DNA of 44,413 nt from Victivallaceae bacterium. GTDB lineage: Bacteria; Verrucomicrobiota; Lentisphaeria; Victivallales; Victivallaceae. Position numbers and translations under genes: made by a program. Under the pieces are notes generated by a model, which had not been told where the DNA came from, searched no databases, and was given only the letters and a program-made list of their open reading frames with translations. Positions 213 through 35,688 of this stretch are shown here, in pieces (the stretch's first letter is position 1; every line of letters starts with the position of its first letter). The stretch lies in the NCBI GenBank assembly GCA_021647315.1, contig JAKIUY010000025.1, positions 1 through 44,413 on the forward strand. Direction: 5' to 3'.

Positions 213-218
213 GCTATA

Positions 219-256
219 CTGCTTCAAACTTCGCGACTGTGTCGCTACGGAAGCAG
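219..256 (-). repeat. Family-B structured repeat, copy 1 (two-stem hairpin CTGCTTC..GCGAC-tgt-GTCGC..GAAGCAG), inverted relative to the other copies
   Basis: Reverse complement aligns with 20080-20117 and 32511-32548. Outer and inner stems differ between copies by compensatory changes. Confidence 0.5.
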
Positions 257-339
257 AAAAGTAAATTATGTCGAAAGTTTTGTTCATATTAGGTACTAAG
301 TGCCTAGGTGAAAATGATTTAATCTTGAAGAGGTGAGTT

Positions 340-2580: not shown

Positions 2581-2745
2581 GGAAATTATTTCATCTGTAG
2601 CTGCGCTCGTGTAGGTATTTTTGACAGGACAACAGGATAAAACAGGATAAAATAAAAAATATTTGTGTCTCCGTGGTTTTCTTTTTCCTCAAAATACCTA
2701 CCCGAACGCAGTGACAGATGAAGCGTAGCGTAATAATTTCCATTA
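2581..2745. mobile_element. MITE-like element of about 165 bp with imperfect terminal inverted repeats of about 50 bp and a central ACAGGATAAAACAGGATAAAA box
   Basis: Left arm 2581-2628 (GGAAATTATT..TCATCTGTAGCTGCGCTCGTGTAGGTATTTTTGACAGG) matches the reverse complement of 2685-2740 (GGAAATTATTACGCTACGCTTCATCTGTCACTGCGTTCGGGTAGGTATTTTGAGG). A second, truncated copy is at 6121-6210. Confidence 0.45.
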
Positions 2746-3037: not shown

Positions 3038-5527
3038 ATGACAAAACCGACTGTTCATTTGATTTGTAATGCCCACCTCGATCCGGTCTGGCTCTGGGAA
3101 TGGGAAGAGGGAGCTGCTGAGGCAATTAGTACATTTAGAGTCGCTGCCGATTTCTGTGATGAATTCGATGGCTTTGTTTTTAATCATAACGAAGTTATTC
3201 TTTACGAATGGGTCGAAGATTACGAACCGGAATTGTTTGCCCGCATTCAGCGCTTGGTTAAAGCTGGCAAATGGCATATCATGGGTGGCTGGTACTTGCA
3301 GCCTGACTGTAATATGCCCAGCGGAGAATCTTTTGTCCGCCAAATCCTGCTTGGTCAAAACTATTTTCAGGATAAATTCGGGGTGTCACCAACGACTGCG
3401 ATCAACTTTGATCCGTTCGGTCACACTCAAGGGCTGGTGCAGATTCTGGCAAAAAGCGGTTATGATGCATATCTTTTCTGCCGCCCGGGTACTACTGATA
3501 TAACTCTGCCACGTGAAGAATTTATCTGGCAAGGTTATGATGGTTCACAGGTGTTGGCAACTCGCCTATTCGGCGCATATTTAAGTGCTCGTGGAAAAGC
3601 GGCGGAAAAAGTTGAAAATTTACTTAAAGAAAGAAAGGATTTCAACCATATCGCTGTCGCCTGGGGTGTCGGTAATCACGGCGGTGGACCATCAAAAATT
3701 GATCTGAAAAAACTCTCGGCATTGGCGGCAGAACGCGATGACTTGAATATTATTCACTCTACACCGGAAAAATATTTCGCTGAACTGAACAGTGAACGTG
3801 TTGACCTGCCGGTGCGTGATGATGATATTAACCCATGGTCAGTGGGTTGTTATACTTCACAGGTTAGATTGAAACAGCTGCATCGTCAAATTGAAAATGA
3901 ACTCTATAAAACAGAAAAAATGCTAACAAATGCTTGGCGTCAGGGCCGCATGGAGTATCCAGCTGAAAAAATGGCGGAAGCGATGCGTGATCTTTGCCAT
4001 GCGGAATTCCATGACATTCTGCCCGGCTCATCTATTCAGCCGGTCGAAGATACTTCAATTCGCCTGATGAATCATGGGCTGGAAATTCTTTCACGCCTCA
4101 AAGCCAAGGCATTTTTTGCCCTCGCAGCCGGACAGCCGAAAGCCGTTGAAGATACGATTCCTATCCTGGTATACAATCCACACCCCTATCCGATCACAAC
4201 GACAGTTGAATGCGAATTTCAATTGGCCGATCAGAATTGGGATGGTGATTTTACCCTTTGTCAGGTAAAAAATAGTTCAGAAAAACTGCCAACCCAGCTT
4301 GAACAGGAAGATAGCCATCTAAATCTCGACTGGCGCAAAAAAGTTGTCTTCAACGCCACCTTGGCACCGTCACAGATGAACCGTTTTGACTGCGATCTGA
4401 TAAAAGTGGACAAACGACCCCTGCCCGATCTTAAGCCGCTCAATGGAGGTTATACTATTGATAATGGCGAGCTTAAAGTCAGGATAAACAGCCGAACCGG
4501 GCTCCTTGACTGTTATGAAGTTGCCGGGAAAAATATTCTGGCCCGTCAAGCATTCAAACCACTGGTTATGGCTGATAATGAAGATCCATGGGGTATGAAA
4601 ACGACAAAGTTCCGCAAAAAAGCTGGAGCATTCAAATTGATGTCAAAACAGGCCAGCGCAGAACATACCGGCATTAAAGCAACTGAAATTTCTTCGGTGC
4701 GGGTGATTGAATATGGTACGGTAAGAACTGTTATTGAAGCATCGTTATGTTATAATAATTCATTTATGCTGATCTCCTATAAAATTCCGGCAACCGGGAC
4801 TGAACTCGAAGTTGAAGTGCGGGTGACCTGGAATGAAAAAGATAAAATGCTCAAACTCTCATTGCCACTGGCTTTTGAGGCGTCAAACAGTCATGCTCAA
4901 ACCGCCTACGGTTTTCATGCATTGCCGATGAACGGCGATGAGGCTATCGCACAAAAATGGCTAACCGCAAGCTCTACGACTACAGATAATGCGTTACTGG
5001 TAATTGATGACAGCACCTATGGTTGTGATGTAACAAACAAAGAACTGCGTTTGAGTCTGTTACGTTCTTCAGCCTACAGCGGGCACCCGATTAATGACCG
5101 GGATATTGTGCCGCAGGATCGTTTTACCGCCAGAATAGATCAGGGCGAGCGTATCTTTAAATTCTGGATTAATGGTGGTTCCGTTGCGAAAATAAGCCAG
5201 CATGCTGAACGAGCGGCATTGAACAAAAACGAGCAGCCGGTAGCACTGTCATTCTTCCCCAGCGGGCACGGACAACCGGTCAGTCAGGGGCCGGTATTGC
5301 ATGGCGATCATACCATTATCATGACCGCCTGCAAGAAAGCTGAAACTGAAGATGCACTTATTATCAGATTATATAATGGCTCTGCAAAAACAGCACAGAC
5401 TGCGTTGACCATAGCGGAGACCAATATATTATCAACTGAAATCTCTTTCAATAAGTTTGAAGTAAAAACCCTGAAAGTAGATTTGTCAACAGGAACCGTG
5501 CAGGAATGCAACATGATGGAAAAATAA
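3038..5527 (+). CDS. Glycoside hydrolase family 38 alpha-mannosidase (MngB-like)
   Basis: N-terminus HLICNAHLDPVWLW matches the GH38 HxHxDxxW signature. Length 829 aa. Confidence 0.8.
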   Translation: MTKPTVHLICNAHLDPVWLWEWEEGAAEAISTFRVAADFCDEFDGFVFNHNEVILYEWVEDYEPELFARIQRLVKAGKWHIMGGWYLQPDCNMPSGESFVRQILLGQNYFQDKFGVSPTTAINFDPFGHTQGLVQILAKSGYDAYLFCRPGTTDITLPREEFIWQGYDGSQVLATRLFGAYLSARGKAAEKVENLLKERKDFNHIAVAWGVGNHGGGPSKIDLKKLSALAAERDDLNIIHSTPEKYFAELNSERVDLPVRDDDINPWSVGCYTSQVRLKQLHRQIENELYKTEKMLTNAWRQGRMEYPAEKMAEAMRDLCHAEFHDILPGSSIQPVEDTSIRLMNHGLEILSRLKAKAFFALAAGQPKAVEDTIPILVYNPHPYPITTTVECEFQLADQNWDGDFTLCQVKNSSEKLPTQLEQEDSHLNLDWRKKVVFNATLAPSQMNRFDCDLIKVDKRPLPDLKPLNGGYTIDNGELKVRINSRTGLLDCYEVAGKNILARQAFKPLVMADNEDPWGMKTTKFRKKAGAFKLMSKQASAEHTGIKATEISSVRVIEYGTVRTVIEASLCYNNSFMLISYKIPATGTELEVEVRVTWNEKDKMLKLSLPLAFEASNSHAQTAYGFHALPMNGDEAIAQKWLTASSTTTDNALLVIDDSTYGCDVTNKELRLSLLRSSAYSGHPINDRDIVPQDRFTARIDQGERIFKFWINGGSVAKISQHAERAALNKNEQPVALSFFPSGHGQPVSQGPVLHGDHTIIMTACKKAETEDALIIRLYNGSAKTAQTALTIAETNILSTEISFNKFEVKTLKVDLSTGTVQECNMMEK

Positions 5528-6120: not shown

Positions 6121-6210
6121 AGGAAATTATTACGCCACGCTTCATCTGTCACTGCGTTCGGGTAGGTATTTTGACAGGATAACAGGATAAAACAGGATAA
6201 AATAAAAAAT
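6121..6210. repeat. Truncated second copy of the MITE-like element (one inverted-repeat arm plus central ACAGGAT box), continuing into an imperfect ~26-bp palindrome
   Basis: GGAAATTATTACGCCACGCTTCATCTGTCACTGCGTTCGGGTAGGTATTTTGACAGGATAACAGGATAAAACAGGATAAAATAAAAAATCCTGTTAATCTTGTTCATCCTGTC. ACAGGAT occurs twice and ATCCTGT twice around an A-rich centre. Confidence 0.45.
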
Positions 6211-7887: not shown

Positions 7888-9528
7888 TTATCTGTTCAAT
7901 AAATTATAGCGAACAGCTCTTTTTAGCAGACTTTTGCTGGACCAGAATTTATTGAATGCCTGATTGAATTTTTTCATATCAACTCCGCGCCAGGCAATTA
8001 TTGTCGCCTGCTTTGCATTGCTGGTTTTCAATATTGCCTGATAATATTTTAATGGAATTTCGCTATAACTGTTTTTATATTTTCCTTTCATTACCCGAGC
8101 CCCTTTCTGCAGAAAAAACATCAACCCATAAGCTAAAATATAGTTTTGTTGTTTATTGATGCCATAGAATTCATTATTGCTCATGGTAAGCAGTTTTTCA
8201 ATGTTGGCTGAGCTTGCGAGGTCTGGTACTTTTTCTGTTCGATAGGTTGTTTCAATAACGGCATTTTTACCTTTGAATTCGATGCCCTCAAAAAATGTGG
8301 CATTACCTTCATTAAACCATACTGCGGTATGCTGTTCGCCAGTAGCAAAATAGATATATTGATGAAATCCTTCATGCTGAATGACATCGACCAGCATTTT
8401 TCTCCGGGTGCGTGCTGAACCGAAATTCATCGGTGAAACTACCAGTTCTTTTTTATCGGCCATCCAGAGCCCCCCGGTCCATTCATACTGTTTGCCGATA
8501 TAGGCGATATACTCTTTCCTGGTCTCAAAGGCTTTGACCACACTGACGGCTTTTAATGGTTCTTTAATGGGATAGATCTGCATAAAAACAGTGCGAGATT
8601 TTTCAAGTCCGGCTTTCAGTTCTTTAACGGTTTTTCTATTATCAATGTTGGCCACCACGATAAAATTATCGGTTTCCAGATACCACCAATCGTCAAGGTT
8701 TTTAATATTATTGATAACCCGTTCACGGCTGGCAATATACTGTGGTGACCAATCTTTTTTCGCGGTAAGTTTTTTTCTAGAGATAATCCGTTTTTTTTCA
8801 TCTTTTTTGAGCCTTGCCGGCGGGGAAAAGCTGATAGATGAGAGACATCTTTTAATGGTTCTAAGACTTTTTTTACGTTCAAGCTGTGGTGCCAGTTTGA
8901 ACTGAATCGCCAGGTGGCGAATAGGAGCTGTTTGTGACGTTACGATATAAACTAAATTTTCGGCATTAAGGGAGTTTGATTCCGCATAGTAGGTGATCGC
9001 TGTTCGGGAAAAATTCTTTTGGGTTAATTTGATGTTTGCATTTGACCCATCCGGCAACAGATATTTGAGCCATGATCGCATTTTTTCTTTGTTCCATTTT
9101 ACTGGTTTCTGAGCATCAAGCCATTGTTCATAGACAGATTTGAAAACAAAAGTATGTCCGGGTTGTTTAAATACAGTTTTCACGGCAGTAGGTGCAGGCA
9201 GGCGCATCTCATACACACTGACCATGAACTTTGTATTGCCATAACTACCGCTTAACTGATCGCGAAGCCATAGTTCTTCCAGCAGACAAACATCAATTTT
9301 TCGGGTTTCTGTACCACGGTGCTGAACCAGAGTTTTCACTGTTAACGATTTTGCTGGATTGGGCTTGGCGTACTTCGGCATCTTCATTTTCAGTCCTATG
9401 GAAGGAATGGTAACAGTGCGCCCGGATTTCAGATAAGGTTTCCGCGCCCAGGTTTGTTGTCCTAATCCAAGCAACACGATTGCAATCGCATAACGCGAGA
9501 TATTTAATAGTCGATAATATTTATTCAT
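7888..9528 (-). CDS. Secreted protein with an HExxH zinc-metallopeptidase motif (HEGFHQ..NEGNATFFE; possibly DUF1570-like)
   Basis: The start is placed at the internal MNKYYRLLNISRYAIAIVLLGLG signal peptide (ATG rc at 9526-9528). It is preceded by the conserved family-D ribosome-binding element AAAAATCAGGAAAAGTTT. The longer ORF that reaches 9570 is less likely. Confidence 0.55.
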   Translation of the reverse strand: MNKYYRLLNISRYAIAIVLLGLGQQTWARKPYLKSGRTVTIPSIGLKMKMPKYAKPNPAKSLTVKTLVQHRGTETRKIDVCLLEELWLRDQLSGSYGNTKFMVSVYEMRLPAPTAVKTVFKQPGHTFVFKSVYEQWLDAQKPVKWNKEKMRSWLKYLLPDGSNANIKLTQKNFSRTAITYYAESNSLNAENLVYIVTSQTAPIRHLAIQFKLAPQLERKKSLRTIKRCLSSISFSPPARLKKDEKKRIISRKKLTAKKDWSPQYIASRERVINNIKNLDDWWYLETDNFIVVANIDNRKTVKELKAGLEKSRTVFMQIYPIKEPLKAVSVVKAFETRKEYIAYIGKQYEWTGGLWMADKKELVVSPMNFGSARTRRKMLVDVIQHEGFHQYIYFATGEQHTAVWFNEGNATFFEGIEFKGKNAVIETTYRTEKVPDLASSANIEKLLTMSNNEFYGINKQQNYILAYGLMFFLQKGARVMKGKYKNSYSEIPLKYYQAILKTSNAKQATIIAWRGVDMKKFNQAFNKFWSSKSLLKRAVRYNLLNR

Positions 9529-9628
9529 AACTAAACTTTTCCTGATTTTTGTGTGCGGGTAAATCTTCATCTAAGTTACAGTTCAAAACATTTCTCTGCA
9601 ATCTCATCTGTAAAAAAACAGAAAAACT
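9529..9628 (-). promoter_or_regulatory. Family-D conserved 5' region, copy D2
   Basis: Distal box TTTTTCTGTTTTTTT, core GAGATTGCAGAG, TAACTT 17 nt downstream, and proximal box CAAAAATCAGGAAAAGTTT immediately before the ATG. The proximal box is the reverse complement of the distal box. Confidence 0.45.
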
Positions 9629-9789
9629 TTAGGTGAACTGAAATGTTTTCGGCAGAAAGAGTGAATTCAACGCAATTTTTATTTTAATATTGACTTTAGG
9701 CTATTTTCGATTAGATTAATCACACATATTTTAAATGTAATTAGGGAAATTCTCATGAATCTAAAATCAATTTGGCAGGGATTTAATCA

Positions 9790-9948: not shown

Positions 9949-11020
9949 CCCCCCTTTGACCTTGTGTCAGAGGATGCAAAGATCAAAACTCGCCAAAATA
10001 TGAATCCCTGAACCTGAAAGGTGCATCATGTCTCATCGACTCTCCCATGAAGATATCGCCCAACTTTCGTTTGAAGATGCATTAGAGACATTGAAAACTG
10101 AGTTGACCCCACTTTATACTCTGGAGAATACCACCTGTGTTCATGCATTGCACTATTCATGGGCCGGTTGGCGCAGCCAAGGTGTGCCATTGCCTACTTC
10201 CATTGGTCAGGCTGTTGAACAGTGTTCGTCACTCTGGCAACAGGATGGATTTCAGTTGGGAAAACAGTCTATCAAAGCTGATATGGTTCAGTGTCTATTT
10301 GCAGTTGCTCCAGAAATCGCTCCGGTAAAATTTACGCAAAGAGTAAAGGGACGCCTTGACCATCAATTGCGTCAGCAAGGTGATGCCATAAAATTTTCAC
10401 GCAAAGTCGGCTTTAGATGCCTCGGTGAAAATATTCGCGAAACGGTCAATAATTATGTGCATAAACAGGTTTGTAAAAGTGATTATATTGATTCGCGTTA
10501 TAAACAGTTCCTGAGTCAATTTACGGTTGCTGATGATAGCAATGATTTAGCGATTCCGGTGGCAAAATCACATGGCAGATATTGGTATAATATTCATTTG
10601 GTGATTGTAGTTGCGGATCGCAATTTTCCAATCAAAGCTGAAGATAAGCTAGAGCAAATCAGAGCTTATATTCCCAGAATTGCTCAAAAAAAAGGGTGTG
10701 AGATTGCCCATTTTTCCATTTTGCCGGATCATATTCATATCGCACTGAAAGGGAATCCGGAGCTGTCGCCGTATGAGATAGGATTGAGCTTTATGAATAA
10801 TTTATCGTATGTGCTGGGATTTAACTGGACGTGGAGTAATGAGTTTTATGTCGGCACCTTCAGTGAATATGCTCTTTCGAAGTTGAGATGAACCGTGAAC
10901 TTTAATTCCATCGAGGTAAACTCGATAGGAATTGAATGTTCCTTAGCCAAACTTGTTTTTCACCTGATTTTGAACTATTAAATTAATTCCCCATCCGACC
11001 TTGTGTCGGGTGAAAAATAT
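9940..11020 (+). mobile_element. Putative IS200/IS605-like unit: a Y1 HUH-like gene flanked by same-orientation subterminal hairpins that share the loop CTTGT
   Basis: Left hairpin TTTGACC..TGACcttgtGTCAGAGG at 9957-9976. Right hairpin CAtCCGACcttgtGTCGGgTG at 10994-11011. An extra 12-bp hairpin AATTCCATCGAG-gtaaa-CTCGATAGGAATT at 10903-10932. Boundaries are approximate. Confidence 0.35.
10028..10891 (+). CDS. Tandem two-domain IS200-like (Y1 HUH transposase-fold) protein. The N-domain lacks HuH but keeps the Tyr helix; the C-domain keeps HuH (DHIHIAL) but lacks the Tyr helix
   Basis: C-terminal half: YWYNIHLVIVVADRNF, ILPDHIHIAL, WSNEFYVGTFSE, aligned by eye to IS608 TnpA. N-terminal half: HALHYSWAGW, ADMVQCLFAV (the HuH position, no His), VKFTQRVKGRLDHQLRQQ, IRETVNNYVHKQ (the catalytic Tyr-Gln helix). 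Confidence 0.55.
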   Translation: MSHRLSHEDIAQLSFEDALETLKTELTPLYTLENTTCVHALHYSWAGWRSQGVPLPTSIGQAVEQCSSLWQQDGFQLGKQSIKADMVQCLFAVAPEIAPVKFTQRVKGRLDHQLRQQGDAIKFSRKVGFRCLGENIRETVNNYVHKQVCKSDYIDSRYKQFLSQFTVADDSNDLAIPVAKSHGRYWYNIHLVIVVADRNFPIKAEDKLEQIRAYIPRIAQKKGCEIAHFSILPDHIHIALKGNPELSPYEIGLSFMNNLSYVLGFNWTWSNEFYVGTFSEYALSKLR

Positions 11021-15315: not shown

Positions 15316-15432
15316 TGTTATTGCTTGTTTTGTTGTTATAACAGTAATTTTTCGTAAATCTAACCTCATCTGTATAATATACAAGCAGGCAAACGGAGTT
15401 TAAATCTAATAAAATATTTTTTAAAAATACCT

Positions 15433-15523
15433 AAATTTTCCTGTTTTTTCAAATATGAGATTGCAGGATGGGTTCTAAACGGTAAATTAGAATTTATAAT
15501 TCACCCAAAAACAGGAAAATTTA
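15433..15523 (+). promoter_or_regulatory. Family-D conserved 5' region, copy D1, upstream of the GspF-like gene
   Basis: AAATTTTCCTGTTTTTT (15433-15449), TGAGATTGCAGGA (15456-15468), TAAATT (15483-15488, 16-nt spacer after TTGCAG), and AAAAACAGGAAAATTT (15507-15522). The last box is the exact reverse complement of the first over 16-17 nt. Confidence 0.45.
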
Positions 15524-16522
15524 GTGGGTAACTTAAAAGCAAAAATAAATTTTTACCGTTCAATGGCAACGATGATTGATGCCGGCGTGCCGGTCGCGAA
15601 AGCATTACGCCATAACTATCAGGCTCCGTTTACCCGAGTTGGTCATGCGATGGCTGATGAGATCGAAGAGCAGGGTGGTTCATTAGCGGATGGGGCAGCA
15701 CTTTTCCCCCGGATTATTGAGCCTTATGAACGCCGTTTAATCAATGCCGGTGAATTTACGGGGCATCTTGAGACAATTTTAATATCATTAGCCGAACGCC
15801 ATGAAAAAACTTTACAGTCGAAGAAAAAAATAATTGGTCAATTGATCTATCCATTATTCCTCTACCATTTTGCCGCTATGGCTATTCCAATGATAAAAGC
15901 GTTAATCAGTGGTGGCGGAATTAAAGGAATAACAGGCAGCTTGGCAATTCCCATTCTTATTGCCTGGGCAATGCCCTATTTAATCTATTTTGGTGGTAAA
16001 GCTCTATTGCGCATTTCAGCATCAATGTCTGAAAATGGCGTCTCTATGTTCGACAGTTTTCTGCTTTATATGCCAATTGTTGGCGGATTGATCAGAAAAT
16101 TAAATTATACCAGATTTTTTGATGCATTCAGTATGGCAGCCAATGCAGGAATGAGAATGACAGATTCGGTCTCACTCGGTGCTTCGGTGTGCAAAAATAA
16201 TTTTATTAAAAACTCATTTAAGCGCAGTGCGGAATATATTGAAGAAAACAACTGTCCACTCTATGGAGCTCTGAGCCATTTTATCTTTCCACGTGATCGT
16301 GATTCGGTAATTTTAACCATGTTGGAGACGGGGGAAATGACTGGTAAAACTGCTGAAGTTGCCGCTAAGATTTCATCACAATGCGAAGAGGAAGCCGATT
16401 ACGCTATGGGAATTGTCGCCAATCTGGTCCCAAAAATAATCTACATCTGCATTGTCATCTATATCGCCTTCGCGATTCTCGGAGCCTGGGAAAAAATGGC
16501 GTCAAGGATGACCTCAATTTAG
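15524..16522 (+). CDS. Type II secretion / type IV pilus platform protein F-like (GspF/PilC family), two T2SSF domains, GTG start
   Basis: Two repeats of the T2SSF pattern (FYRSMATMIDAGVPVAKALRH...GGSLADGAALFP...GEFTGHLETIL and FFDAFSMAANAGMRMTDSVSL...LSHFIFPRDRDSVILTMLETGEMTGK), with hydrophobic helices after each. No GspE/GspD partners lie in the window. Confidence 0.6.
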   Translation: MGNLKAKINFYRSMATMIDAGVPVAKALRHNYQAPFTRVGHAMADEIEEQGGSLADGAALFPRIIEPYERRLINAGEFTGHLETILISLAERHEKTLQSKKKIIGQLIYPLFLYHFAAMAIPMIKALISGGGIKGITGSLAIPILIAWAMPYLIYFGGKALLRISASMSENGVSMFDSFLLYMPIVGGLIRKLNYTRFFDAFSMAANAGMRMTDSVSLGASVCKNNFIKNSFKRSAEYIEENNCPLYGALSHFIFPRDRDSVILTMLETGEMTGKTAEVAAKISSQCEEEADYAMGIVANLVPKIIYICIVIYIAFAILGAWEKMASRMTSI

Positions 16523-20076: not shown

Positions 20077-20079
20077 TTT

Positions 20080-20155
20080 CCGCTTCCGTAGCGACGAAGG
20101 AGCGGAGTTTGAAGCGGCATCTGCTTTCAGGTGCCACCTGATTAGGAAATATATT
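20080..20155 (+). repeat. Family-B structured repeat, copy 2, ending at the ATG of the SWIM gene
   Basis: CCGCTTCCGTAGCGACGAAGGAGCGGAGTTTGAAGCGGCATCTGCTTTCAGGTGCCACCTGATTAGGAAATATATT-ATG. About 85% identical to 32511-32586. Confidence 0.5.
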
Positions 20156-21106
20156 ATGTCAAGATATTATGATGATTATCCGGCTTATGTTTCGGTTGCG
20201 GAACGTAAACACCAGATTCAGCAGAAAATGGTCAAACTACGCAAACAGGGGCAAGAACTTTCGCCAGTGGTGATTGAAGGCCGTCTTATTGCCAGAACCT
20301 TCTGGGGCAAAGCATGGTGTACCAATATTGAGTCATACCATGATTATTCGAATCGCCTGCCACGCGCTCGTAGTTACGTCAAACATGGTGCGGTGGTTGA
20401 TCTGAAAATCGAGACCGGTAAAATTACCGCATTGGTTCAGGGCTCTGAACTTTATAATGTCGATATTACAATAGAAAAACTCAATACAAATCGTTGGGAG
20501 AAAATTAAACAGGAATGTGCCGGAAAAATTAATTCACTGATTGATCTGATTCAGGGCAAACTTTCTGATGAGGTTATTGCTCTACTTTGTCGCCACGATG
20601 AAGGACTGTTCCCTGCACCGAATGAAATTAGATTGGACTGCGATTGCCCGGACTGGGCGGATCTATGCAAACACCTAGCGGCAGTTCTTTATGGAATCGG
20701 TGCCCGACTGGATCATGAACCTGAACTTTTTTTCCTGTTGCGCGGTGTCGATCAGCATGAACTTTTCACTGCCGGTTTGACGGACAACCTGACCGGTACA
20801 GATGTCGAATCAGATATTGCAGACGATGCTCTAGGTGACATCTTTGGTATTGATTTAGATGAGTTGGATGATATCATGCCTGAACCATCTCCGGTAAAAG
20901 AAGTAGCTAAGCCCAAAAAACAGACCGCTAAGGCTAAATCAACCAAGGCAACCCCTAGAGTCAAGAAGGTGACAAAAAAAAGTGTAGTAGCCAAAAGCAC
21001 TGTGGTAAAAAAGCCAAGCAAGTCAAAGTCACAGCCCATAGAGGTGAAAGTCACTAAAGTTAAAGAGAAAAAGGCAGGGCGTTCAATGCGCCGTGGCAAA
21101 AAATAA
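20156..21106 (+). CDS. SWIM zinc-finger protein with a C-terminal histone-H1-like Lys/Ala/Pro-rich tail
   Basis: CDCPDWADLCKHLAAVLY matches the SWIM CxCx(n)CxH signature. The tail reads KEVAKPKKQTAKAKSTKATPRVKKVTKKSVVAKSTVVKKPSKSKS.. The bacterial SNF2 plus SWIM pairing is established in the literature. Confidence 0.8.
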   Translation: MSRYYDDYPAYVSVAERKHQIQQKMVKLRKQGQELSPVVIEGRLIARTFWGKAWCTNIESYHDYSNRLPRARSYVKHGAVVDLKIETGKITALVQGSELYNVDITIEKLNTNRWEKIKQECAGKINSLIDLIQGKLSDEVIALLCRHDEGLFPAPNEIRLDCDCPDWADLCKHLAAVLYGIGARLDHEPELFFLLRGVDQHELFTAGLTDNLTGTDVESDIADDALGDIFGIDLDELDDIMPEPSPVKEVAKPKKQTAKAKSTKATPRVKKVTKKSVVAKSTVVKKPSKSKSQPIEVKVTKVKEKKAGRSMRRGKK

Positions 21107-22117: not shown

Positions 22118-22233
22118 CTCTTATCTATTATATTGTAGTATAAATTTTTTATAGGAAAAAGAAGTCAGCCGCGAATACGTTAATAAAAAAAATATTAGGT
22201 GTCTCAGCAACGGAAATTCAGGAGAAATATATT

Positions 22234-28425: not shown

Positions 28426-29529
28426 ATGGCAATTAAACGATGGAGAATTATGATGAAGATATCTGATATACCTAGTAGTATTTTGGAGGATTTCAGACGT
28501 GGTATGGTGATCCCGGCAATGCCGTTGGCGTTGGACGAACAACGTAATTTCTTAAAACAGAATCAGCGTGCACTGGCGCGTTATTATATTGATGCGGGGG
28601 CAGGGGGGATTGCGGTCGGGGTTCATTCAACCCAGTTTGAAATTCGTGATCCTGAAATAAACCTTTTTGAACCGGTATTGTCATCAACGTCGCAATATAT
28701 TGATGAATGGTGCGCGGAAACTGGGCGTGAGATTTTGAAAGTTGCCGGAGTATGTGGCAAAACAGCACAAGCGATAGCGGAAGCACAGTTTGCGGTGGCT
28801 AATGGCTACCATGCCTGTTTGCTGAGTATGTCGGCGTTTAAAGCTGACAGTGAAGCCGCGATGCTGGAACATTGCCGGGCGCTCGCAGATGTCATTCCGG
28901 TAATCGGCTTTTATCTGCAGCCAAGTGTTGGAGGTCGTATTCTTAAATATTCATTTTGGCGTGAATTCGCTAAAATTGAAAATATACTGGCAATAAAAAT
29001 GGCGCCGTTTAATCGTTATCAGACTCTGGATGTGGTCAGAGCATTGGCTGATTCCGGTCATGCTGACCACATAATGCTTTATACCGGCAATGATGATAAT
29101 ATAATCATTGATTTGCTGAGTGAATATAAAATTCAGACCGTTGGCGGTGAAAAAAAATTGCGGATTAGAGGTGGTTTGCTTGGGCATTGGTGTGTGTGGA
29201 CCAAGCGGGCAGTTGAGTTATTGAATGAAATTCATGAACTATTGGATTCCGGTGATGAAATACCGGCAGAAATGCTTTCGCGCAATATCGCGGTTACTGA
29301 CAGTAATGCTGCACTGTTTGACCCGGAGAATGATTTTGCCGGCTGTATTCCCGGTATTCATGAAGTATTGCGGCGGCAGGGACTGTTACCGGGTACCTGG
29401 TGTCTCAATCTAAATGAGGTATTGTCGCCTGGTCAGTCGGAGGAGCTTGATCGGGTCTATAATAGTTACCCCAAGCTTAATGATGATGAATTTGTCAAGA
29501 CGAACTTGCCGAGGTGGATGGCTGAGTGA
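28426..29529 (+). CDS. Dihydrodipicolinate synthase / N-acetylneuraminate lyase (DapA) family protein
   Basis: VIPAMPLALDEQRNFLKQNQRALARYYIDAGAGGIAVGVHSTQFE is a TIM-barrel class I aldolase DapA-like N-terminus. The true start is probably the second ATG (MMKIS) after a GGAG. Confidence 0.6.
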   Translation: MAIKRWRIMMKISDIPSSILEDFRRGMVIPAMPLALDEQRNFLKQNQRALARYYIDAGAGGIAVGVHSTQFEIRDPEINLFEPVLSSTSQYIDEWCAETGREILKVAGVCGKTAQAIAEAQFAVANGYHACLLSMSAFKADSEAAMLEHCRALADVIPVIGFYLQPSVGGRILKYSFWREFAKIENILAIKMAPFNRYQTLDVVRALADSGHADHIMLYTGNDDNIIIDLLSEYKIQTVGGEKKLRIRGGLLGHWCVWTKRAVELLNEIHELLDSGDEIPAEMLSRNIAVTDSNAALFDPENDFAGCIPGIHEVLRRQGLLPGTWCLNLNEVLSPGQSEELDRVYNSYPKLNDDEFVKTNLPRWMAE

Positions 29530-29560
29530 GTGGACTGGGTGAATCGAGATGATCGAGTGG

Positions 29561-29650
29561 ACTGATGGGACTGATGGGACTGATGGGACTGATGGGACTG
29601 ATGGGACTGATGGGACTGATGGGACTGATGGGACTGATGGGACTGATGGT
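29561..29650. repeat. Perfect tandem array of the 9-bp unit ACTGATGGG (9 exact copies plus 1 variant)
   Basis: Read directly. It lies just downstream of the DapA-like stop codon and 170 nt upstream of the TetR gene. Related GTGGACTGGGTG direct repeats sit at 28404-28415 and 29530-29541. Confidence 0.9.
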
Positions 29651-29822
29651 GGGCGGTAATCTGCTTTGTAGCGATGTCAGTTACTGGTACTTTTTTTTGA
29701 TTCGGTGGCTTGCCATCACATAGGTCTCATTTGCCTCATTAGACCCATTCTTTCAGTGGCTTTACAGAACGACTCTATCGGGTCAGAACGCAAAACAGGA
29801 ATGAAAACAGGGGATAAACTTC

Positions 29823-31742: not shown

Positions 31743-31891
31743 ATTTTATATTCCATTTTATAATTATTTTCGTGCAAACCATAAAGTGTACACGGTTAGT
31801 TTTGCAACCTATAATCTAGCGGAATAAACGGAATAATCAAACGGTTGTATCAGTTTCGATGAAACTGATATATTATAAGATGGAGATAACT

Positions 31892-32418: not shown

Positions 32419-32460
32419 CAGTTGCGGAGTTTGAAGCGGTAATCTGCCTTCAGGTGCCAC
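32419..32460 (+). repeat. Family-B repeat, partial copy (right half only), a 42-nt exact duplicate of 32529-32570
   Basis: CAGTTGCGGAGTTTGAAGCGGTAATCTGCCTTCAGGTGCCAC is identical in both places. Confidence 0.6.
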
Positions 32461-32510
32461 TTGTTTTGTAATATCCTGTTATTTTTTGGCAGAATATTTG
32501 ATTTCTTACT

Positions 32511-32586
32511 CCGCTTCCGTAGCAACGCAGTTGCGGAGTTTGAAGCGGTAATCTGCCTTCAGGTGCCACCTGATTAGGAGATTATG
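32511..32586 (+). repeat. Family-B structured repeat, copy 3 (CCGCTTC-cgta-GCAAC-gca-GTTGC-ggag-ttt-GAAGCGG ... GGTGCCACCTGATTAGGAGATT-ATG)
   Basis: The inner stem GCAAC/GTTGC is compensatory relative to GCGAC/GTCGC in copy 1. The 3' end carries an RBS-like AGGAG and an ATG, but here it overlaps the stop codon of the opposite-strand dus gene. Confidence 0.5.
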
Positions 32587-33583
32587 GTTGCAGACGACGT
32601 TCGGCATCTGGATATTTTTTCAGCCAACTCCAATAACGTTGCCCCGGCTTTGCTTCAGCCACCAGTTGCATGAAATTATTAAAATCATCAACTGTTTTCA
32701 AAAATGAAACCTGAGCTTTCAGAGTGCCGTTGAAACCTCGCCCTTTCAGGTAATCAAGAATGATTTTTCTGGATACTTTCATCGCCAGTTCTTCTCCGTA
32801 AAAAACGACCATCTCCAACACATGGCATTGCAATTCTTCCAGTAGTTCATTAACGGCCGGCGGTCTATAATTTTCAGGTGAACTGAGTTCCTGGAATAAC
32901 CATGGATTGCCCATGGCACCGCGTGCGACCATTACGGTATCACAACCGCTTTTTTCGCGCATTTCATTACATGAGAGGTGACTCGTGACATTGCCATTGC
33001 CGATAATTTGAATATTGCATGTTTCACGTACTGCGGCAATTACATGATAATGAACCGAGCCGGCATAGAAATGTCTTCGTATACGGCCATGAATGGTTAT
33101 AGCCTGTGCGCCGGCATCTACCAATTTTTTTACCAGTGTAATTGTCGGAGTTGGATCATTTTCATCCTGAATTCTTATTTTTGCGGTAACCGGGAATTTA
33201 GATTTCCGGGCAATAAGTTCCATTAATTGAGCTGCTTTGTCACAATCTTGTCCCAATACGGCACCTGCGCCTTTACGGGCAACCTTCGGTGCCGGACAGC
33301 CAAGATTGAAATCAAGAACATCAAAATTATGCCGGTTTAATATATCCAGAGCTTTGTCAATTCTATCAGCATGGCAGCCGACCAGTTGCACCCCAAGCCA
33401 GCTGTCAGCGGGGGAACGTCGCAGCATAATTTCAGTGCGTTCACTGCCGTAAGCCAGTGAGCTGGCATCAACCATTTCAGTAAATGCGAATGTACAGCCG
33501 TGCCGCCAAGCTGAGTTGCGATATGGCATATCGGTAAAGCCTGATAAAGGTGCCAGAATAATACTGTTCTTCGGGTAAATCAT
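32582..33583 (-). CDS. tRNA-dihydrouridine synthase (Dus family, DusB-like)
   Basis: IILAPLSGFTDMPYRNSAWRHGCTFAFTEMV and a TIM-barrel FMN pattern. Preceded by the family-D leader. Confidence 0.85.
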   Translation of the reverse strand: MIYPKNSIILAPLSGFTDMPYRNSAWRHGCTFAFTEMVDASSLAYGSERTEIMLRRSPADSWLGVQLVGCHADRIDKALDILNRHNFDVLDFNLGCPAPKVARKGAGAVLGQDCDKAAQLMELIARKSKFPVTAKIRIQDENDPTPTITLVKKLVDAGAQAITIHGRIRRHFYAGSVHYHVIAAVRETCNIQIIGNGNVTSHLSCNEMREKSGCDTVMVARGAMGNPWLFQELSSPENYRPPAVNELLEELQCHVLEMVVFYGEELAMKVSRKIILDYLKGRGFNGTLKAQVSFLKTVDDFNNFMQLVAEAKPGQRYWSWLKKYPDAERRLQP

Positions 33584-33690
33584 AAGTTGCTGAACTTTTC
33601 CTGTTTTTTAAAGAACTACTAAACTATCATTTAATTTACTATTCCAATTTAACTCCTGCAATCTCACATGACAAAAAACAGGAAAAATTA
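33584..33690 (-). promoter_or_regulatory. Family-D conserved 5' region, copy D3, upstream of dus
   Basis: Reverse complement reads AATTTTTCCTGTTTTTTG..TGAGATTGCAGGAG..(17 nt)..TAAATT....TTAAAAAACAGGAAAAGTTCAGCAACTT-ATG. Confidence 0.45.
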
Positions 33691-33751
33691 CCGGTTCCTG
33701 AAATCCTGCTTGAATTACGTATGCAGTACAAACCGGGGTCAAATGGGAAGC

Positions 33752-34990
33752 TTAAGCTAAGTCGGTTACAAGATGTTTAAAATGTTCGCCGCGTTGCCGG
33801 TAGTTTTCAAAACAGTCCATGCTTGCACAGCCGGGCGAGAGCAGGATAATATCACCCGGCTGAGCCTCATTACAGGCAGTTTCAACTGCATTATCGAAAT
33901 CAGCGATAACCGTTCTTTTTACCATGCTGTCAAGTGCAGAGGATGTCTTATCCCGGCATGCTCCGGTAATGTAAGCTTTCTTCAACATGCCCGCAATTAT
34001 GTTGAGTTCAGAAAAATCCATTGCTTTATCCAGACCACCAAGAATTATTCTGATATTTCCGCTCTTATGCAGAGTAGTTACTGCGGCAATCACCGCTGCG
34101 GGATTGGTTGCCTTTGAATCATCAATATAGCGGATGCCATTTCTACATAGAAACTGATCCAGTCGATGAGCACCGGGAGTAAAAGATTTTATTGCTGTGA
34201 TAAGCTCAACTGATTGCATTTTTTCTTCAGGCACTATGGTTTTTACCAAACTTAACGCCACTGACAGATTTTCTATATTATGCGAGGCGGATAATGAGGT
34301 CATTGCTGGATCAATTATTGGCGGCAGCGGTTTGGCACAGCTGGCTTTCAGTGCATCCGATAGTAGTGGATTGTTAATCAATGATGTGCCGATAATACGT
34401 CTTTCGGGAAGGCTGATATTATCGAATATTTTCAGTTTAGTTTTCAGATATTTATCAATACTGCCATCATAACGTTCCAGATGGTCCGAGGCTATATTTA
34501 ACAGAGCTGCTGCATGCGGGGCAAATTTATGACATAGTTCAAGCTGAAAAGAGCTTACTTCTACGACGAGGACAGTTTCTGGAGTGGCGGTAATGACGGC
34601 TTCGCTCAATGCCGTGCCAATATTTCCGGCTGGTCGAGCATCAATACCACATGCCTTCAGGAGATGAACGGTAAGTTCAGTTGTCGTCGTTTTGCCGTTA
34701 GTGCCGGTTATTGCCAATATTCTGCATGGTGTATGACGGGTGGCAAATTCTAGTTCACTGACCATTTCAACGCCGGTTGTTATGGCTGCTTGATAAAGCG
34801 AAGATGACGGCGGCAGTCCCGGGCTGACGATAAACATTTCGCTGTCGGAGAAGTTATCTGGAAGTGGATCATGGTCACTTGCTATTATTGTGCAGTTTAT
34901 ATTCAGGCTGCGACAAAGCTTTTCCGCTGCCCTGCCACTGATCCCATACCCGAGAATTGTTACGTTATTGATTAGTTTGCTATTATTCAC
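33752..34990 (-). CDS. murD: UDP-N-acetylmuramoylalanine--D-glutamate ligase
   Basis: ILGYGISGRAA..ITGTNGKTTTTEL..DDSKATN, a Mur ligase. It lies outside any dcw cluster. The start overlaps the upstream prepilin-like gene stop (ATGA). Confidence 0.85.
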   Translation of the reverse strand: MNNSKLINNVTILGYGISGRAAEKLCRSLNINCTIIASDHDPLPDNFSDSEMFIVSPGLPPSSSLYQAAITTGVEMVSELEFATRHTPCRILAITGTNGKTTTTELTVHLLKACGIDARPAGNIGTALSEAVITATPETVLVVEVSSFQLELCHKFAPHAAALLNIASDHLERYDGSIDKYLKTKLKIFDNISLPERRIIGTSLINNPLLSDALKASCAKPLPPIIDPAMTSLSASHNIENLSVALSLVKTIVPEEKMQSVELITAIKSFTPGAHRLDQFLCRNGIRYIDDSKATNPAAVIAAVTTLHKSGNIRIILGGLDKAMDFSELNIIAGMLKKAYITGACRDKTSSALDSMVKRTVIADFDNAVETACNEAQPGDIILLSPGCASMDCFENYRQRGEHFKHLVTDLA

Positions 34991-35688
34991 TTTTGTCTAT
35001 TTCTATCGGCATTGTCCCAGACTTTGTCAATTGATTCCGCTGTTTCGTCAGAGATAAACAGGCCATCTCCGGCGGCGGTAAAACGCTTGCCGCCTGAGGA
35101 ATCGTTATATTCGTTATCGACATGACCATCACTGAACAGAATATTAGTTTTAATAAAACTGTGAGCTATCTCTTCAGTTGTGCCGTCAGTTTTTATCAGG
35201 CTAAAATCCATGACTATGGCTTTACCGCCATTAGAGGGATGGCTGAGGATTTCATTGAAATCATTATCGGTTTCACGATAGAGATAGGCACTTTTCGTTT
35301 CACCGCCAGCTTCCCAGTCTGTAACAACCTGTTTAGGGAGCCGGGGATGATGTAGTAAACAACCGAACATTCGGTACCGGATATTATAATCAGCAGTAAT
35401 AAATGCTGATAAACCCAGCTTTTTACCGGTGGCATCTTTAACTATATTTGAACTTACCCGCTGGTAGCGTGCTCCTATATCATGCGGGGGGATTTTTTCC
35501 TGATTATCGTTGGAGTACAGTGCCATCGCCAGGCTGAACAGTTTTAAATTATTGGCACACTCTGCCTCTTTTGCCCGGTTTCGTGCACTGGTTAATGCCG
35601 GCATGATAATTGCGGCCAGAATGGCAATTATCGATATCACTATTAGCAGTTCGATTAAGGTGAAGCATCTTTTTTTGCCTGTTTTCAT
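34987..35688 (-). CDS. Prepilin-type N-terminal cleavage/methylation domain protein with a DUF1559 / H-X9-DG C-terminus
   Basis: KRCFTLIELLIVISIIAILAAIIMPAL..FSDGHVDNEYNDSSGG. This family is hugely expanded in Lentisphaerota, Planctomycetota and Verrucomicrobiota. Confidence 0.8.
   Translation of the reverse strand: MKTGKKRCFTLIELLIVISIIAILAAIIMPALTSARNRAKEAECANNLKLFSLAMALYSNDNQEKIPPHDIGARYQRVSSNIVKDATGKKLGLSAFITADYNIRYRMFGCLLHHPRLPKQVVTDWEAGGETKSAYLYRETDNDFNEILSHPSNGGKAIVMDFSLIKTDGTTEEIAHSFIKTNILFSDGHVDNEYNDSSGGKRFTAAGDGLFISDETAESIDKVWDNADRNRQK

What the first reader, a model, noticed from the sequence alone, without database searches (positions are those of the whole stretch)
15433..15523. 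Conserved ~100-nt 5' region shared by three unrelated genes, in which a distal T-rich box is the reverse complement of the Shine-Dalgarno region
Three genes carry the same ordered set of elements upstream of their starts, all in gene orientation: the GspF-like gene (15433-15523, +), the HExxH secreted protein (9529-9628, -) and dus (33584-33690, -).
- Box 1: (A)ATTTTTCCTGTTTTTT.
- Core: (A)TGAGATTGCAG(G/A)AG, 5-7 nt downstream.
- A TAAATT or TAACTT hexamer, 16-17 nt after TTGCAG.
- Box 2: AAAAA(A/T)CAGGAAAAGTT, 4-9 nt before the start codon.
Box 2 contains the ribosome-binding site. It is the reverse complement of box 1: 16-17 nt perfect in D1, 14 in D3, and 13 of 15 with a G.U-compatible change in D2.
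There are two readings. (a) A cis-regulatory RNA leader in which box 1 sequesters the Shine-Dalgarno sequence (a fourU-like thermometer or an attenuator), with a conserved loop. (b) A sigma70-type promoter (TTGCAG -35, TAAATT -10) whose UP-like element happens to mirror the ribosome-binding site. The three genes are functionally unrelated (secretion platform, peptidase, tRNA modification), which argues for a general expression-control module.
Basis: seen in the sequence. Interest (0 to 1): 0.65.

Follow-up and report, generated by a model that had tools for sequence, protein, structure and literature searches.

The report
Promoter module with anti-ribosome-site arm
Three unrelated genes of an uncultured Victivallales (Lentisphaerota) bacterium share a ~100-base promoter-plus-ribosome-site module whose upstream T-rich box is the exact mirror of the ribosome-binding site, so only transcripts that start outside the module would fold shut; this is a real, lineage-specific and partly portable control element, but its mechanism still needs a mapped transcription start.

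Summary
TGAGATTGCAG occurs exactly three times in the window, each time in gene orientation, with box 1 exactly 6 nt upstream, a TAnnTT hexamer 16-17 nt after TTGCAG, and a box 2 that is complementary to box 1 over 13-17 exact bases (control maximum 12).

Eleven family members were compared: the three copies, their orthologues in related metagenome contigs, and copies upstream of ftsB/DivIC and pyrH. The part common to all is a sigma70-type promoter, TTGnnn-N16/17-TAnnnT, with the T-rich box fixed 18 nt upstream of the -35. Box 2 is optional.

The arm complementarity is not accidental. One orthologue changed box 1, the -35 region and box 2 in concert.

A fourU-type thermometer is unlikely, because the 14-19 bp helix stays closed in silico to 55-65 C.

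Best reading (confidence 0.4): a self-contained promoter/RBS unit. Its own transcripts lack box 1 and keep the SD open. Transcripts entering from upstream fold back and bury the SD, as in IS10/IS50 fold-back inhibition.

The dus copy lies in a 166-bp segment absent from two relatives, so the unit can be gained.

Main rival: a bistable leader RNA transcribed from an upstream promoter. A mapped 5' end would decide between them.

The parts
15430..15449 (+). D1 box 1 (CCTAAATTTTCCTGTTTTTT), the upstream T-rich arm. It lies about -67 to -48 from the predicted start.
   Evidence: Its G is 18 nt from the -35 TTG, as in 10 of 11 family members.
15456..15468 (+). D1 core TGAGATTGCAGGA. TTGCAG (15461-15466) is the predicted -35. 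The core is also the 3' arm of a hairpin with box 1.
15483..15488 (+). D1 predicted -10 hexamer TAAATT, 16 nt after TTGCAG. The predicted transcription start is about 15495-15497.
   Evidence: The start position is inferred, not mapped.
15507..15524 (+). D1 box 2 (AAAAACAGGAAAATTTAG). It is the reverse complement of box 1, contains the SD AGGA, and its last base is the G of the GTG start.
   Evidence: The start codon position is conserved in four orthologues and is ATG in L067.
15524..16522 (+). GspF/PilC-like gene (332 aa) served by D1.
9612..9633 (-). D2 box 1 (CCTAAAGTTTTTCTGTTTTTTT).
9591..9606 (-). D2 core TGAGATTGCAGAGAAA. The -35 TTGCAG is 9601-9596. CAGA is complementary to the TCTG variant of D2 box 1.
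9573..9578 (-). D2 predicted -10 hexamer TAACTT, with a 17-nt spacer.
9531..9550 (-). D2 box 2 (AAAAATCAGGAAAAGTTTAG), 2 nt before the ATG at 9528.
7888..9528 (-). DUF1570/HExxH secreted protein gene served by D2.
33673..33692 (-). D3 box 1 (GGTAATTTTTCCTGTTTTTT).
33653..33666 (-). D3 core TGAGATTGCAGGAG. The -35 TTGCAG is 33661-33656.
33633..33638 (-). D3 predicted -10 hexamer TAAATT, with a 17-nt spacer.
33590..33609 (-). D3 box 2 (AAAAAACAGGAAAAGTTCAG), 6 nt before the ATG at 33583.
33598..33763 (-). 166-bp segment present in the window between the Mur-ligase-like gene and dus. It is absent from relatives L061 (Dus 97% identical) and L074 (82%). It carries the whole D3 module except the last bases of box 2.
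32582..33583 (-). dus (tRNA-dihydrouridine synthase) served by D3.

Best explanation
The module is a lineage-specific sigma70-type promoter unit.

Anatomy: a T-rich upstream box (box 1) sits at a fixed 18 nt from a TTGCAG -35. A TAAATT-type -10 follows after 16-17 nt. Then comes a 29-43-nt A-rich leader whose Shine-Dalgarno region (box 2) is the reverse complement of box 1.

Mechanism: box 1 lies upstream of the predicted transcription start. Transcripts made from the module's own promoter therefore lack box 1 and have an accessible SD. Any transcript that enters from upstream (operon read-through or pervasive transcription) carries both arms and folds into a 14-19-bp helix that buries the SD and, in D1, the start codon. 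The unit would thus make translation of the downstream gene depend on its own promoter. This is the 'fold-back inhibition' logic described for IS10 and IS50 transposase genes.

What is shown: the anatomy; that it is more than chance; the conservation pattern of the promoter elements; the optional nature of box 2; the in-silico folding contrast; and the gain or loss of the unit at dus.

What is inferred: the transcription start; that box 1 acts as an UP-like or activator element on DNA; and that read-through RNAs are the target of the pairing.
For: - Promoter. TTG and TA..TT are invariant, with a 16-17-nt spacer, in 11 family members upstream of five different genes. This includes L069 (GspF-like protein 72% identical), where both arms are gone, and ftsB/DivIC (L063, L065) and pyrH (L041), which have box 1, core and -10 but no box 2.
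- Box 1 to -35 distance is rigid at 18 nt, whereas box 1 to box 2 varies from 69 to 76 nt. This fits a DNA-level promoter role for box 1 and a spacing-independent (pairing) relation to box 2.
- Folding. With box 1 in the RNA, the probability that the SD is unpaired is <=0.03 at 37 C. From the predicted start it is 0.62-0.88.
- The complementarity is specific to these genes. CAGGA is a minority SD context: 12 of 48 AGGA sites, half of them these copies.
- Complementarity was maintained in evolution. In L068, box 1 CCTG->CCTA is matched by box 2 CAGG->TAGG. In D2, the U in box 1 faces a G.
- Re-wiring at dus. In L061 the Mur-ligase stop overlaps the dus ATG (ATGA), and in L074 the gap is 6 nt. 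The window has 166 extra bp carrying the module, and no terminator lies upstream of it.
- No Rfam family matches.
Against: - No transcription start is mapped. TTGCAG/TAAATT match the E. coli consensus at only 7 of 12 positions, and the simple scanner does not call them.
- D1 and D2 have divergent upstream neighbours, so the source of read-through there is unclear.
- The ftsB/DivIC copy in L065 has a co-directional upstream gene but no box 2. Box 2 therefore does not track read-through risk.
- Box 1 also pairs with the -35 region, with compensatory changes in D2 and L068. The fold-back model does not need this and it might even compete with it. It fits a two-state leader RNA better.
- The SD-to-start spacing of 15 nt in D3 is long for a working SD.
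- Covariation rests on very few independent events.
Confidence: 0.4

Rival explanations
1. Cis-regulatory leader RNA with two states, transcribed from a promoter upstream of box 1.
- ON state: box 1 pairs with the core (TCCTGTTTTTTCA / TGAGATTGCAGGA), leaving the SD free.
- OFF state: box 1 pairs with box 2 and the SD is sequestered.
- A protein, small RNA, RNase III or co-transcriptional kinetics chooses between the two.
For: - The box 1:core hairpin is more stable than shuffles (z -2.0 to -3.6) in D1 (window, L066, L068), D2, D3 and L069.
- In the six full copies, 100% of box 1:core cells pair. There are two compensatory pairs: C-G to U-A in D2 and G-C to A-U in L068. Only 5 of 500 shuffles reach this.
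- L068 changed box 1, core and box 2 in concert.
- Non-Watson-Crick positions are mostly U.G on the sense strand.
- The forced ON fold is only 3-10 kcal/mol above the MFE.
- D1 has a conserved TATAAT/CATAAT block upstream, on the same strand.
- IS200 shows that a stable SD-sequestering 5'UTR helix can sit in a native transcript (PMC4513863).
Against: - The invariant TTG would lie in an internal loop and the TA..TT in a loop, where RNA structure gives no reason for invariance.
- Family members without box 2, and some without the hairpin (L063, L041, L067; z about 0 or positive), keep the core and hexamer.
- No conserved promoter candidate lies upstream of box 1 in D2 or D3. The D2 candidate loses its A-11 in L066.
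- The OFF helix is so stable that a trigger is needed, and none is evident.
- There is no Rfam match.
- With 11 sequences the covariation is only modest.
Confidence: 0.25
2. Dispersed, MITE-like or recombination-spread repeat: a 'promoter cassette' whose arms are terminal inverted repeats. The complementarity is a relic of how the DNA moves or arises, for example template switching in replication, and not a working RNA structure.
For: - The arms look like 18-20-bp terminal inverted repeats (CTAAAnTTTTCCTGTTTTTT).
- The dus copy is a presence/absence polymorphism.
- The HExxH copy is seen only in the window and its nearest relative. L070 (80% identical) shares only the -10-to-RBS half.
- The window is full of other short dispersed repeat families, several of them directly upstream of start codons.
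- An IS200-like Y1 transposase gene lies 400 nt from D2.
- Template switching is reported to create and maintain hairpins, with apparent compensatory changes arising in one step (PMC8794818).
Against: - There is no target-site duplication at the dus indel, and its right edge falls inside box 2.
- Copies are only 70-75% identical, with conserved blocks and free spacers. That is the pattern of selection on motifs, not of recent transposition.
- All 11 members point towards a start codon 40-55 nt downstream of the hexamer.
- Relatives keep the inner promoter without the arms (L069) or have only one arm (L067, ftsB, pyrH). A unit that moves as a whole would not leave this pattern.
- No further copy was found in 205 kb.
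Confidence: 0.15
3. Regulon signature on DNA. Box 1, the CAGGA in the -35 region and box 2 are binding sites for one transcription factor (activator or looping repressor) that co-regulates these genes.
For: - Box 1 is at a fixed distance from the -35 in 10 of 11 members and is conserved across five unrelated genes.
- The motif is present in three copies per promoter in D1 and D3.
Against: - The box 1-box 2 distance varies between 69 and 76 bp, more than half a helical turn, which is bad for looping.
- Site variants differ between promoters of one genome, and the paired sites change together within a promoter (D2: TCTG/CAGA; L068: CCTA/TAGG/TAGG). Meanwhile the ftsB promoter from the same sample as L068 keeps CCTG. 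A protein reads each site independently, so this pattern is not expected.
- Box 2 is missing at ftsB and pyrH.
Confidence: 0.1
4. Invertible promoter (phase-variation switch). The inverted repeats are recombinase sites and the promoter between them flips.
For: Inverted repeats of 14-20 bp flank a promoter-like segment, and the right repeat would regenerate the RBS after inversion.
Against: - All copies and orthologues, from six different samples, are in the same orientation.
- Only ~55 bp lie between the arms, which is very short for synapsis (my own knowledge).
- There is no invertase gene beside any copy.
- Box 1 is kept at ftsB and pyrH without a partner.
Confidence: 0.03

Closest known systems
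Fold-back inhibition ('protection from outside transcription') of IS10 and IS50 transposase mRNAs
   Same: A sequence upstream of the element's own transcription start is complementary to the ribosome-binding region. Only transcripts initiated outside therefore sequester the RBS, while the native short transcript is translatable. This description is from my own knowledge of the classical IS10/IS50 work. IS200's related devices are described in PMC4513863.
   Different: Here the unit serves ordinary chromosomal genes (GspF-like, peptidase, dus), not a transposase. The helix is longer (14-19 bp). The upstream arm doubles as a fixed-distance promoter-upstream box. No start site has been mapped.
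IS200 left end: terminator hairpin plus 5'UTR stem-loop that sequesters the SD (PMC4513863)
   Same: There are two inverted-repeat structures around a weak promoter, one of them burying the SD. Both are small AT-rich modules.
   Different: In IS200 the anti-SD lies inside the native 5'UTR, and the first hairpin is a terminator. Here no terminator is predicted, and the anti-SD arm is upstream of the predicted -35.
Sigma70 promoters with an UP element
   Same: TTGnnn-N16/17-TAnnnT, with a T-tract followed by an A-rich stretch at about -40 to -60 and at fixed distance.
   Different: Box 1 contains a conserved CCTG and extends beyond the usual UP region. It matches the UP consensus only in part and is complementary to the RBS. 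Binding of the alpha subunit is untested.
FourU / ROSE RNA thermometers
   Same: A U-rich stretch pairs with the AGGA of the SD.
   Different: Thermometers use short, imperfect helices that melt at 37-42 C and lie in the 5'UTR. This helix is 14-19 bp, stays closed to 55-65 C in silico, and its U-rich arm is probably not in the primary transcript.
Promoter-carrying MITEs such as Correia elements of Neisseria (from my own knowledge)
   Same: About 100-150 bp, terminal inverted repeats, promoter activity, found next to genes, transcribed copies fold into hairpins.
   Different: Correia elements have TA target duplications and many near-identical copies in both orientations. Here there is no duplication, few diverged copies, a single orientation, and members with only one arm.

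Membership tests
sigma70-type promoter | -35-like TTGnnn and -10-like TAnnnT hexamers separated by 16-18 bp, with the most conserved consensus positions kept | tested here: met
   All 11 members have TTG and TA..TT with a 16-17-bp spacer, and variation is confined to the weakly conserved hexamer positions. The E. coli consensus match is only 7 of 12.
sigma70-type promoter | Transcription starts 6-9 nt downstream of the -10 | not testable with these tools
   No transcriptome or 5'-end data are available.
UP element | A/T-rich alpha-CTD binding tracts at -40 to -60, at fixed distance from the -35 | tested here: inconclusive
   There is a fixed 18-nt offset, with a T6 tract followed by CAAATA. 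But the conserved CCTG does not fit the consensus as I recall it.
RNA thermometer (fourU type) | Weak SD-masking helix that opens in the physiological temperature range | tested here: not met
   SD unpaired probability is <=0.03 from 25 to 55-65 C in D1 and D3, and 0.26 at 55 C in D2.
RNA thermometer / riboswitch / leader | The masking arm lies within the mRNA | not testable with these tools
   This depends on the transcription start. Only D1 has a conserved promoter-like block upstream.
Known RNA families (Rfam 15) | Match to a curated covariance model | tested here: not met
   There are no hits at gathering score in the window, and only chance-level miRNA-precursor hits at E>1.
Leader-peptide attenuator | Conserved upstream ORF and a terminator/antiterminator pair | tested here: not met
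   ATGAGATTGCAG could start MRLQ..., but the frame and length (3-29 codons) are not conserved and the start is absent in L067 and L069 (read). No terminator is predicted.
MITE | Terminal inverted repeats | tested here: met
   The arms are 14-20 bp.
MITE | Target-site duplication and clean presence/absence at empty sites | tested here: not met
   The dus indel of 166 bp has no duplication and its right edge lies inside box 2.
MITE | Many similar copies in either orientation | tested here: not met
   There are three paralogues at 70-75% identity, all facing a start codon, and no more in 205 kb. The whole genome was not available.
REP/REPIN with RAYT | Palindromic REP units in inverted pairs, and a cognate REP-associated tyrosine transposase | tested here: not met
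   The arms are not themselves palindromic. The neighbouring Y1 gene scores 18.8 bits against a RAYT cut-off of 80, and 58.8 bits against 55 for IS200.
Invertible promoter | Both orientations present in populations, and an adjacent invertase | tested here: not met
   There is one orientation in all contigs from six samples and no recombinase gene beside the copies.
IS10/IS50-type fold-back inhibition | A segment upstream of the native start is complementary to the RBS, so that only longer transcripts are masked | tested here: inconclusive
   Complementarity and differential folding are shown in silico. The native start is inferred only.
IS10/IS50-type fold-back inhibition | Part of an insertion sequence controlling its transposase | tested here: not met
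   The downstream genes are GspF-like, DUF1570/HExxH and dus.

The most novel reading that the evidence does not exclude
A previously undescribed class of portable bacterial expression unit. It is a ~115-bp promoter/RBS cassette that carries its own RNA-level insulator or two-state switch: box 1 pairs either with the -35 region or with the SD. Translation of the downstream gene would then depend on where the transcript started. The cassette can be gained in front of genes, re-wiring them out of operons, as at dus.
Probability: 0.2. Interest if true: 0.7.

Novelty: new variant of a known kind. Interest (0 to 1): 0.5.

Why it matters
Almost nothing is known about promoters and translational control in Lentisphaerota.

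If the module works as proposed, it shows that the transposon trick of making translation depend on the transcript's origin has been taken up for ordinary chromosomal genes. It would also be a compact natural 'insulated promoter + RBS' part.

The dus locus is a natural before/after pair: translationally coupled to the upstream gene in two relatives, and autonomous in this genome.

If instead box 1 is transcribed, the element is a new structured leader with three-way complementarity, controlling secretion, peptidase and tRNA-modification genes.

Either way, one 5'-end mapping experiment decides it.

Tried and rejected
- Public-collection scans with exact patterns. The genome-contig scan (box 1 + core) and the viral scan returned only chance hits or nothing. 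The metagenome scan (core + hexamer) gave 48 chance hits and one true relative, L041 (pyrH). The source genome is not in these collections, so no genome-wide count was possible.
- Exact look-up of the window's Dus protein: not on record.
- Thermometer reading: rejected on helix stability.
- Leader peptide (MRLQ...): rejected, because frame, length and start codon are not conserved (read).
- Sigma54 promoter: there is no GG 10-11 nt upstream of the TTGC (read from the sequence).
- Box 1 as the RBS of a divergent small ORF: there is no conserved start codon after it on the other strand.
- Terminator upstream of box 1 in the dus insert or in D1/D2: none.
- Box 2 as the generic RBS of this organism: AAGGA is the common form. 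ACAGGAA occurs at 5 of 120 starts, and at least three of these are the module copies counted here.
- A similar anti-RBS match at tyrS (11 nt in L063) is within chance expectation, so I did not build on it.
- Search for the donor of the dus insert among the fetched loci: nothing found.
- The internal helix between the -35/-10 spacer and the early leader: only A/G transitions opposite U, and weak support.

Full report
**Observation.**
- TGAGATTGCAG occurs exactly three times in the window, with no one-mismatch relatives.
- Each copy lies in the orientation of the gene downstream.
- Each copy has, in order: box 1 (CTAAAnTTTTCCTGTTTTTT) ending 6 nt upstream of the core; a GTAA(A/C)TTA block placing TAAATT/TAACTT 16-17 nt after TTGCAG; and box 2, the reverse complement of box 1, just before the start codon (coordinates).
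- The box motif is over-represented: 18 hits against 4.1 expected, with 0 of 100 shuffles reaching 18.
- Among 120 gene starts of this lineage, exact complementarity of 13 nt or more between the RBS region and the upstream region is found only at these copies. Mismatched control pairs never exceed 12.
- The paralogues are alignable over ~115 nt at 70-75% identity. The pattern is conserved blocks separated by variable spacers of conserved length.

**Organism and relatives.**
- Dus, GspF-like and DUF1570/HExxH homologues place the window in Lentisphaerota/Victivallales.
- The source genome is not in the searchable contig collections.
- I therefore fetched the orthologous loci of related metagenome genomes through the three proteins. 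These are L061/L062 (Dus 97%), L074 (82%), L063/L064 (88%), L065 (84%), L066-L069 (GspF-like 89, 92, 87 and 72%) and L070-L073 (HExxH 80, 74 and 68%).

**What is common to the family.** A loose pattern and a covariance model find 11 members:
- D1 and its orthologues in L066, L067, L068 and L069;
- D2 and its orthologue in L066;
- D3;
- copies upstream of ftsB/DivIC in L063 and L065;
- a copy upstream of pyrH in the one true metagenome hit, L041.

All 11 keep TTG and TA..TT. The other hexamer positions vary (TTGCAG/TTGTAG/TTGCGG/TTGCGA; TAAATT/TAACTT/TAAGTT/TAGATT), and the spacer is 16-17 nt. This is the degeneracy pattern of sigma70 -35 and -10 hexamers. The hexamer lies 33-52 nt from the start codon.

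- Box 1 lies 18 nt from the TTG in 10 of 11 members, whereas box 1 to box 2 varies from 69 to 76 nt.
- L069 keeps GATTGTAG-N16-GTAAATTA but has neither arm in recognisable form, and it uses a different RBS.
- The ftsB and pyrH copies have box 1, core and hexamer but no box 2.
- L067 has a decayed box 1 with box 2 intact.

The constant part is therefore a promoter with a fixed upstream T-rich box, and box 2 is an optional addition. A clearly canonical promoter of the same lineage (TTGCTT-N17-TATACT, upstream of the response-regulator gene and conserved in five genomes) shows that the housekeeping consensus there is E. coli-like. By that standard the module's promoter is a moderate match: 7 of 12, not called by the simple scanner.

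**The complementarity is real and maintained.**
- In the six full copies, 94% of box 1:box 2 cells pair, against 55-75% when the partner is slid.
- In L068, box 1 CCTG became CCTA and box 2 CAGG became TAGG at the paired position. In D2 the U of box 1 faces a G.
- Box 1 plus its spacer is also complementary to the core itself (TCCTGTTTTTTCA / TGAGATTGCAGGA). All cells pair in the six full copies, with two compensatory pairs (C-G to U-A in D2, G-C to A-U in L068). Only 5 of 500 shuffles reach this.
- The hairpin is more stable than shuffles (z -2.0 to -3.6) in D1 (three genomes), D2, D3 and L069, but not in L067, L063, L041 or D2 of L066.
- With all 11 members, 86% of cells pair against 47-56% for slid controls, and the covariation is modest.
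- L068 thus changed box 1, the -35 region and box 2 in concert. Given one change in each block, I estimate the chance of that placement at about 10^-3 (my arithmetic).
- The ftsB promoter from the same sample as L068 keeps CCTG. This argues against a changed DNA-binding protein and for pairing or templated mutation.

**Folding.**
- If box 1 is in the RNA, the SD is more than 97% paired at 37 C. In D1 and D3 it remains so at 55-65 C.
- From a start ~7 nt after the hexamer, the SD is 62-88% unpaired.
- A thermometer is therefore unlikely.
- Forcing the box 1:core hairpin costs 3-10 kcal/mol relative to the MFE, so a two-state RNA is conceivable.

**Evolutionary behaviour.**
- At dus: in L061 the Mur-ligase-like gene's stop overlaps the dus ATG, and in L074 the gap is 6 nt. 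L063 and L065 have another upstream gene and no module. The window has 166 extra bp (33763-33598) carrying the module. Gain in the window's lineage is the parsimonious reading.
- There is no target duplication at that indel, and its right edge falls inside box 2. The bases after it (AAGTT..AG) resemble both the relative's coding tail and the end of D2's box 2. The mechanism, and even the polarity, are therefore not certain.
- The HExxH copy is present only in the window and L066. L070 shares the -10-to-RBS half (~70% identity) but not box 1 or the core. L071 and L072 have nothing.
- The GspF-like copy is the oldest.
- No further copies occur in 205 kb of lineage DNA.

**Explanation.** I take the core and hexamer to be the promoter (about 0.7). 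Box 1 is then a DNA-level upstream element that is not in the primary transcript. The reading that uses all the anatomy is fold-back inhibition: only RNAs starting upstream contain box 1 and have their SD buried, as described for IS10/IS50. Related devices in IS200 are reviewed in PMC4513863. The dus locus fits this reading. A gene formerly coupled to its upstream neighbour now has its own promoter and RBS, and read-through RNA would be masked. No terminator is predicted in that insert.

Weak points of this explanation:
- D1 and D2 have divergent neighbours.
- The ftsB copy has a co-directional neighbour but no box 2.
- The box 1:core pairing is unexplained by this model.

**Main rival.** The main rival is a two-state leader RNA transcribed from upstream. 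It explains the three-way complementarity best. It does not explain the invariant TTG/TA..TT or the arm-less members, and it lacks conserved upstream promoters at D2 and D3.

**Other rivals.**
- The arms may be relics of mobility or of template-switch mutation, which can create and maintain hairpins with apparent compensatory changes (PMC8794818). This is possible, but the motif-like conservation and the single orientation argue for function.
- A transcription-factor regulon and an invertible promoter are less likely (see the rival entries).

**Verdict.** This is a real, non-chance, lineage-specific promoter/leader module with an unusual anti-RBS upstream arm. It is a new variant of known principles, with the mechanism unresolved until a transcription start is mapped.

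Noticed in passing
window 6245, 17088, 42939, 43666 (all + strand); also L066 about 8484-8502: A REP-like hairpin family, GT(T/C)CCGGCAAAGCCGGTTAT(G/A)T, occurs four times. Three copies lie 17-32 nt upstream of start codons (genes at 6291, 17118 and 42974), two of them with no obvious SD in between.
   Followed up: partly
window 17001(-), 17022, 17055, 42905 and 22157-22198: A second repeat, GCGCATTCGCGGCT(A/G)A followed by a T-run, often sits next to the CCGGCAAAGCCGG hairpin. Together they form a composite ~70-nt element upstream of the SNF2 helicase gene and the RNase T-like gene.
   Followed up: no
window 216-266 (inverted), 20077-20150, 32419-32473, 32501-32582: A third dispersed repeat (~75 nt) reads TCCGCTTCCGTAGC..GGAGTTTGAAGCGG..ATCTGCCTTCAGGTGCCACCTGATTAGGA. 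At 20156 its end supplies the RBS of a SWIM-domain gene. Two tandem copies lie just downstream of dus.
   Followed up: no
window 2590-2741 and 6122-6210: 53-nt inverted repeats (98% complementary) and 42-nt direct repeats bracket the GH38 alpha-mannosidase gene (3038-5527). This may be a mobile or invertible 3.4-kb segment.
   Followed up: no
window 29515-29658: A tandem array of about 14 copies of the 9-mer GACTGATGG lies immediately after the DHDPS-family gene (28426-29529).
   Followed up: no
window 10028-10891 (+); L066 2322-3185: A 287-aa protein has an IS200-like Y1 transposase domain only in its C-terminal part (residues ~180-251). It is kept at the same syntenic position in the nearest relative. 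It passes the IS200 cut-off narrowly and is far below the RAYT cut-off, so it may be domesticated.
   Followed up: partly
window 15352-15392; L066-L069 equivalents: A ~45-nt block (TTTTTCGTAAAnnTAACCTnAnnTGTATAATATACAAGCA) with a palindromic TGTATAATATACA is conserved between the divergent MFS/HEAT gene and the GspF-like gene in all five genomes. It reads as a -10 on both strands, so it may be a bidirectional promoter or an operator.
   Followed up: partly
window 31743-31850 (-); L063, L065 tyrS upstream: A conserved TTGATTATTCC(G/A)TTTA(T/C)TCC(G/A)CTA(G/A)ATTATAGG lies upstream of tyrS. It looks like TTGATT-N16-TAGATT and contains a 10-11-nt complement of the tyrS RBS AAATGGAATA, within chance expectation. 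The nearest relative, L061, lacks this block.
   Followed up: partly
window 15524-16522: The GspF/PilC-like gene is short (332 aa, first T2SSF domain from residue ~10). It stands alone without other secretion or pilus genes nearby, and this is so in all relatives. A prepilin-type N-methylation motif protein lies at 34987-35688.
   Followed up: no
window 33752-33770; L061 9985-10004; L074 9975-9994: The C-terminal tail of the Mur-ligase-like protein after ...LVT differs in each lineage (DLA*, KFTSL*, LYQE*). The junction with dus has therefore been remodelled repeatedly.
   Followed up: partly
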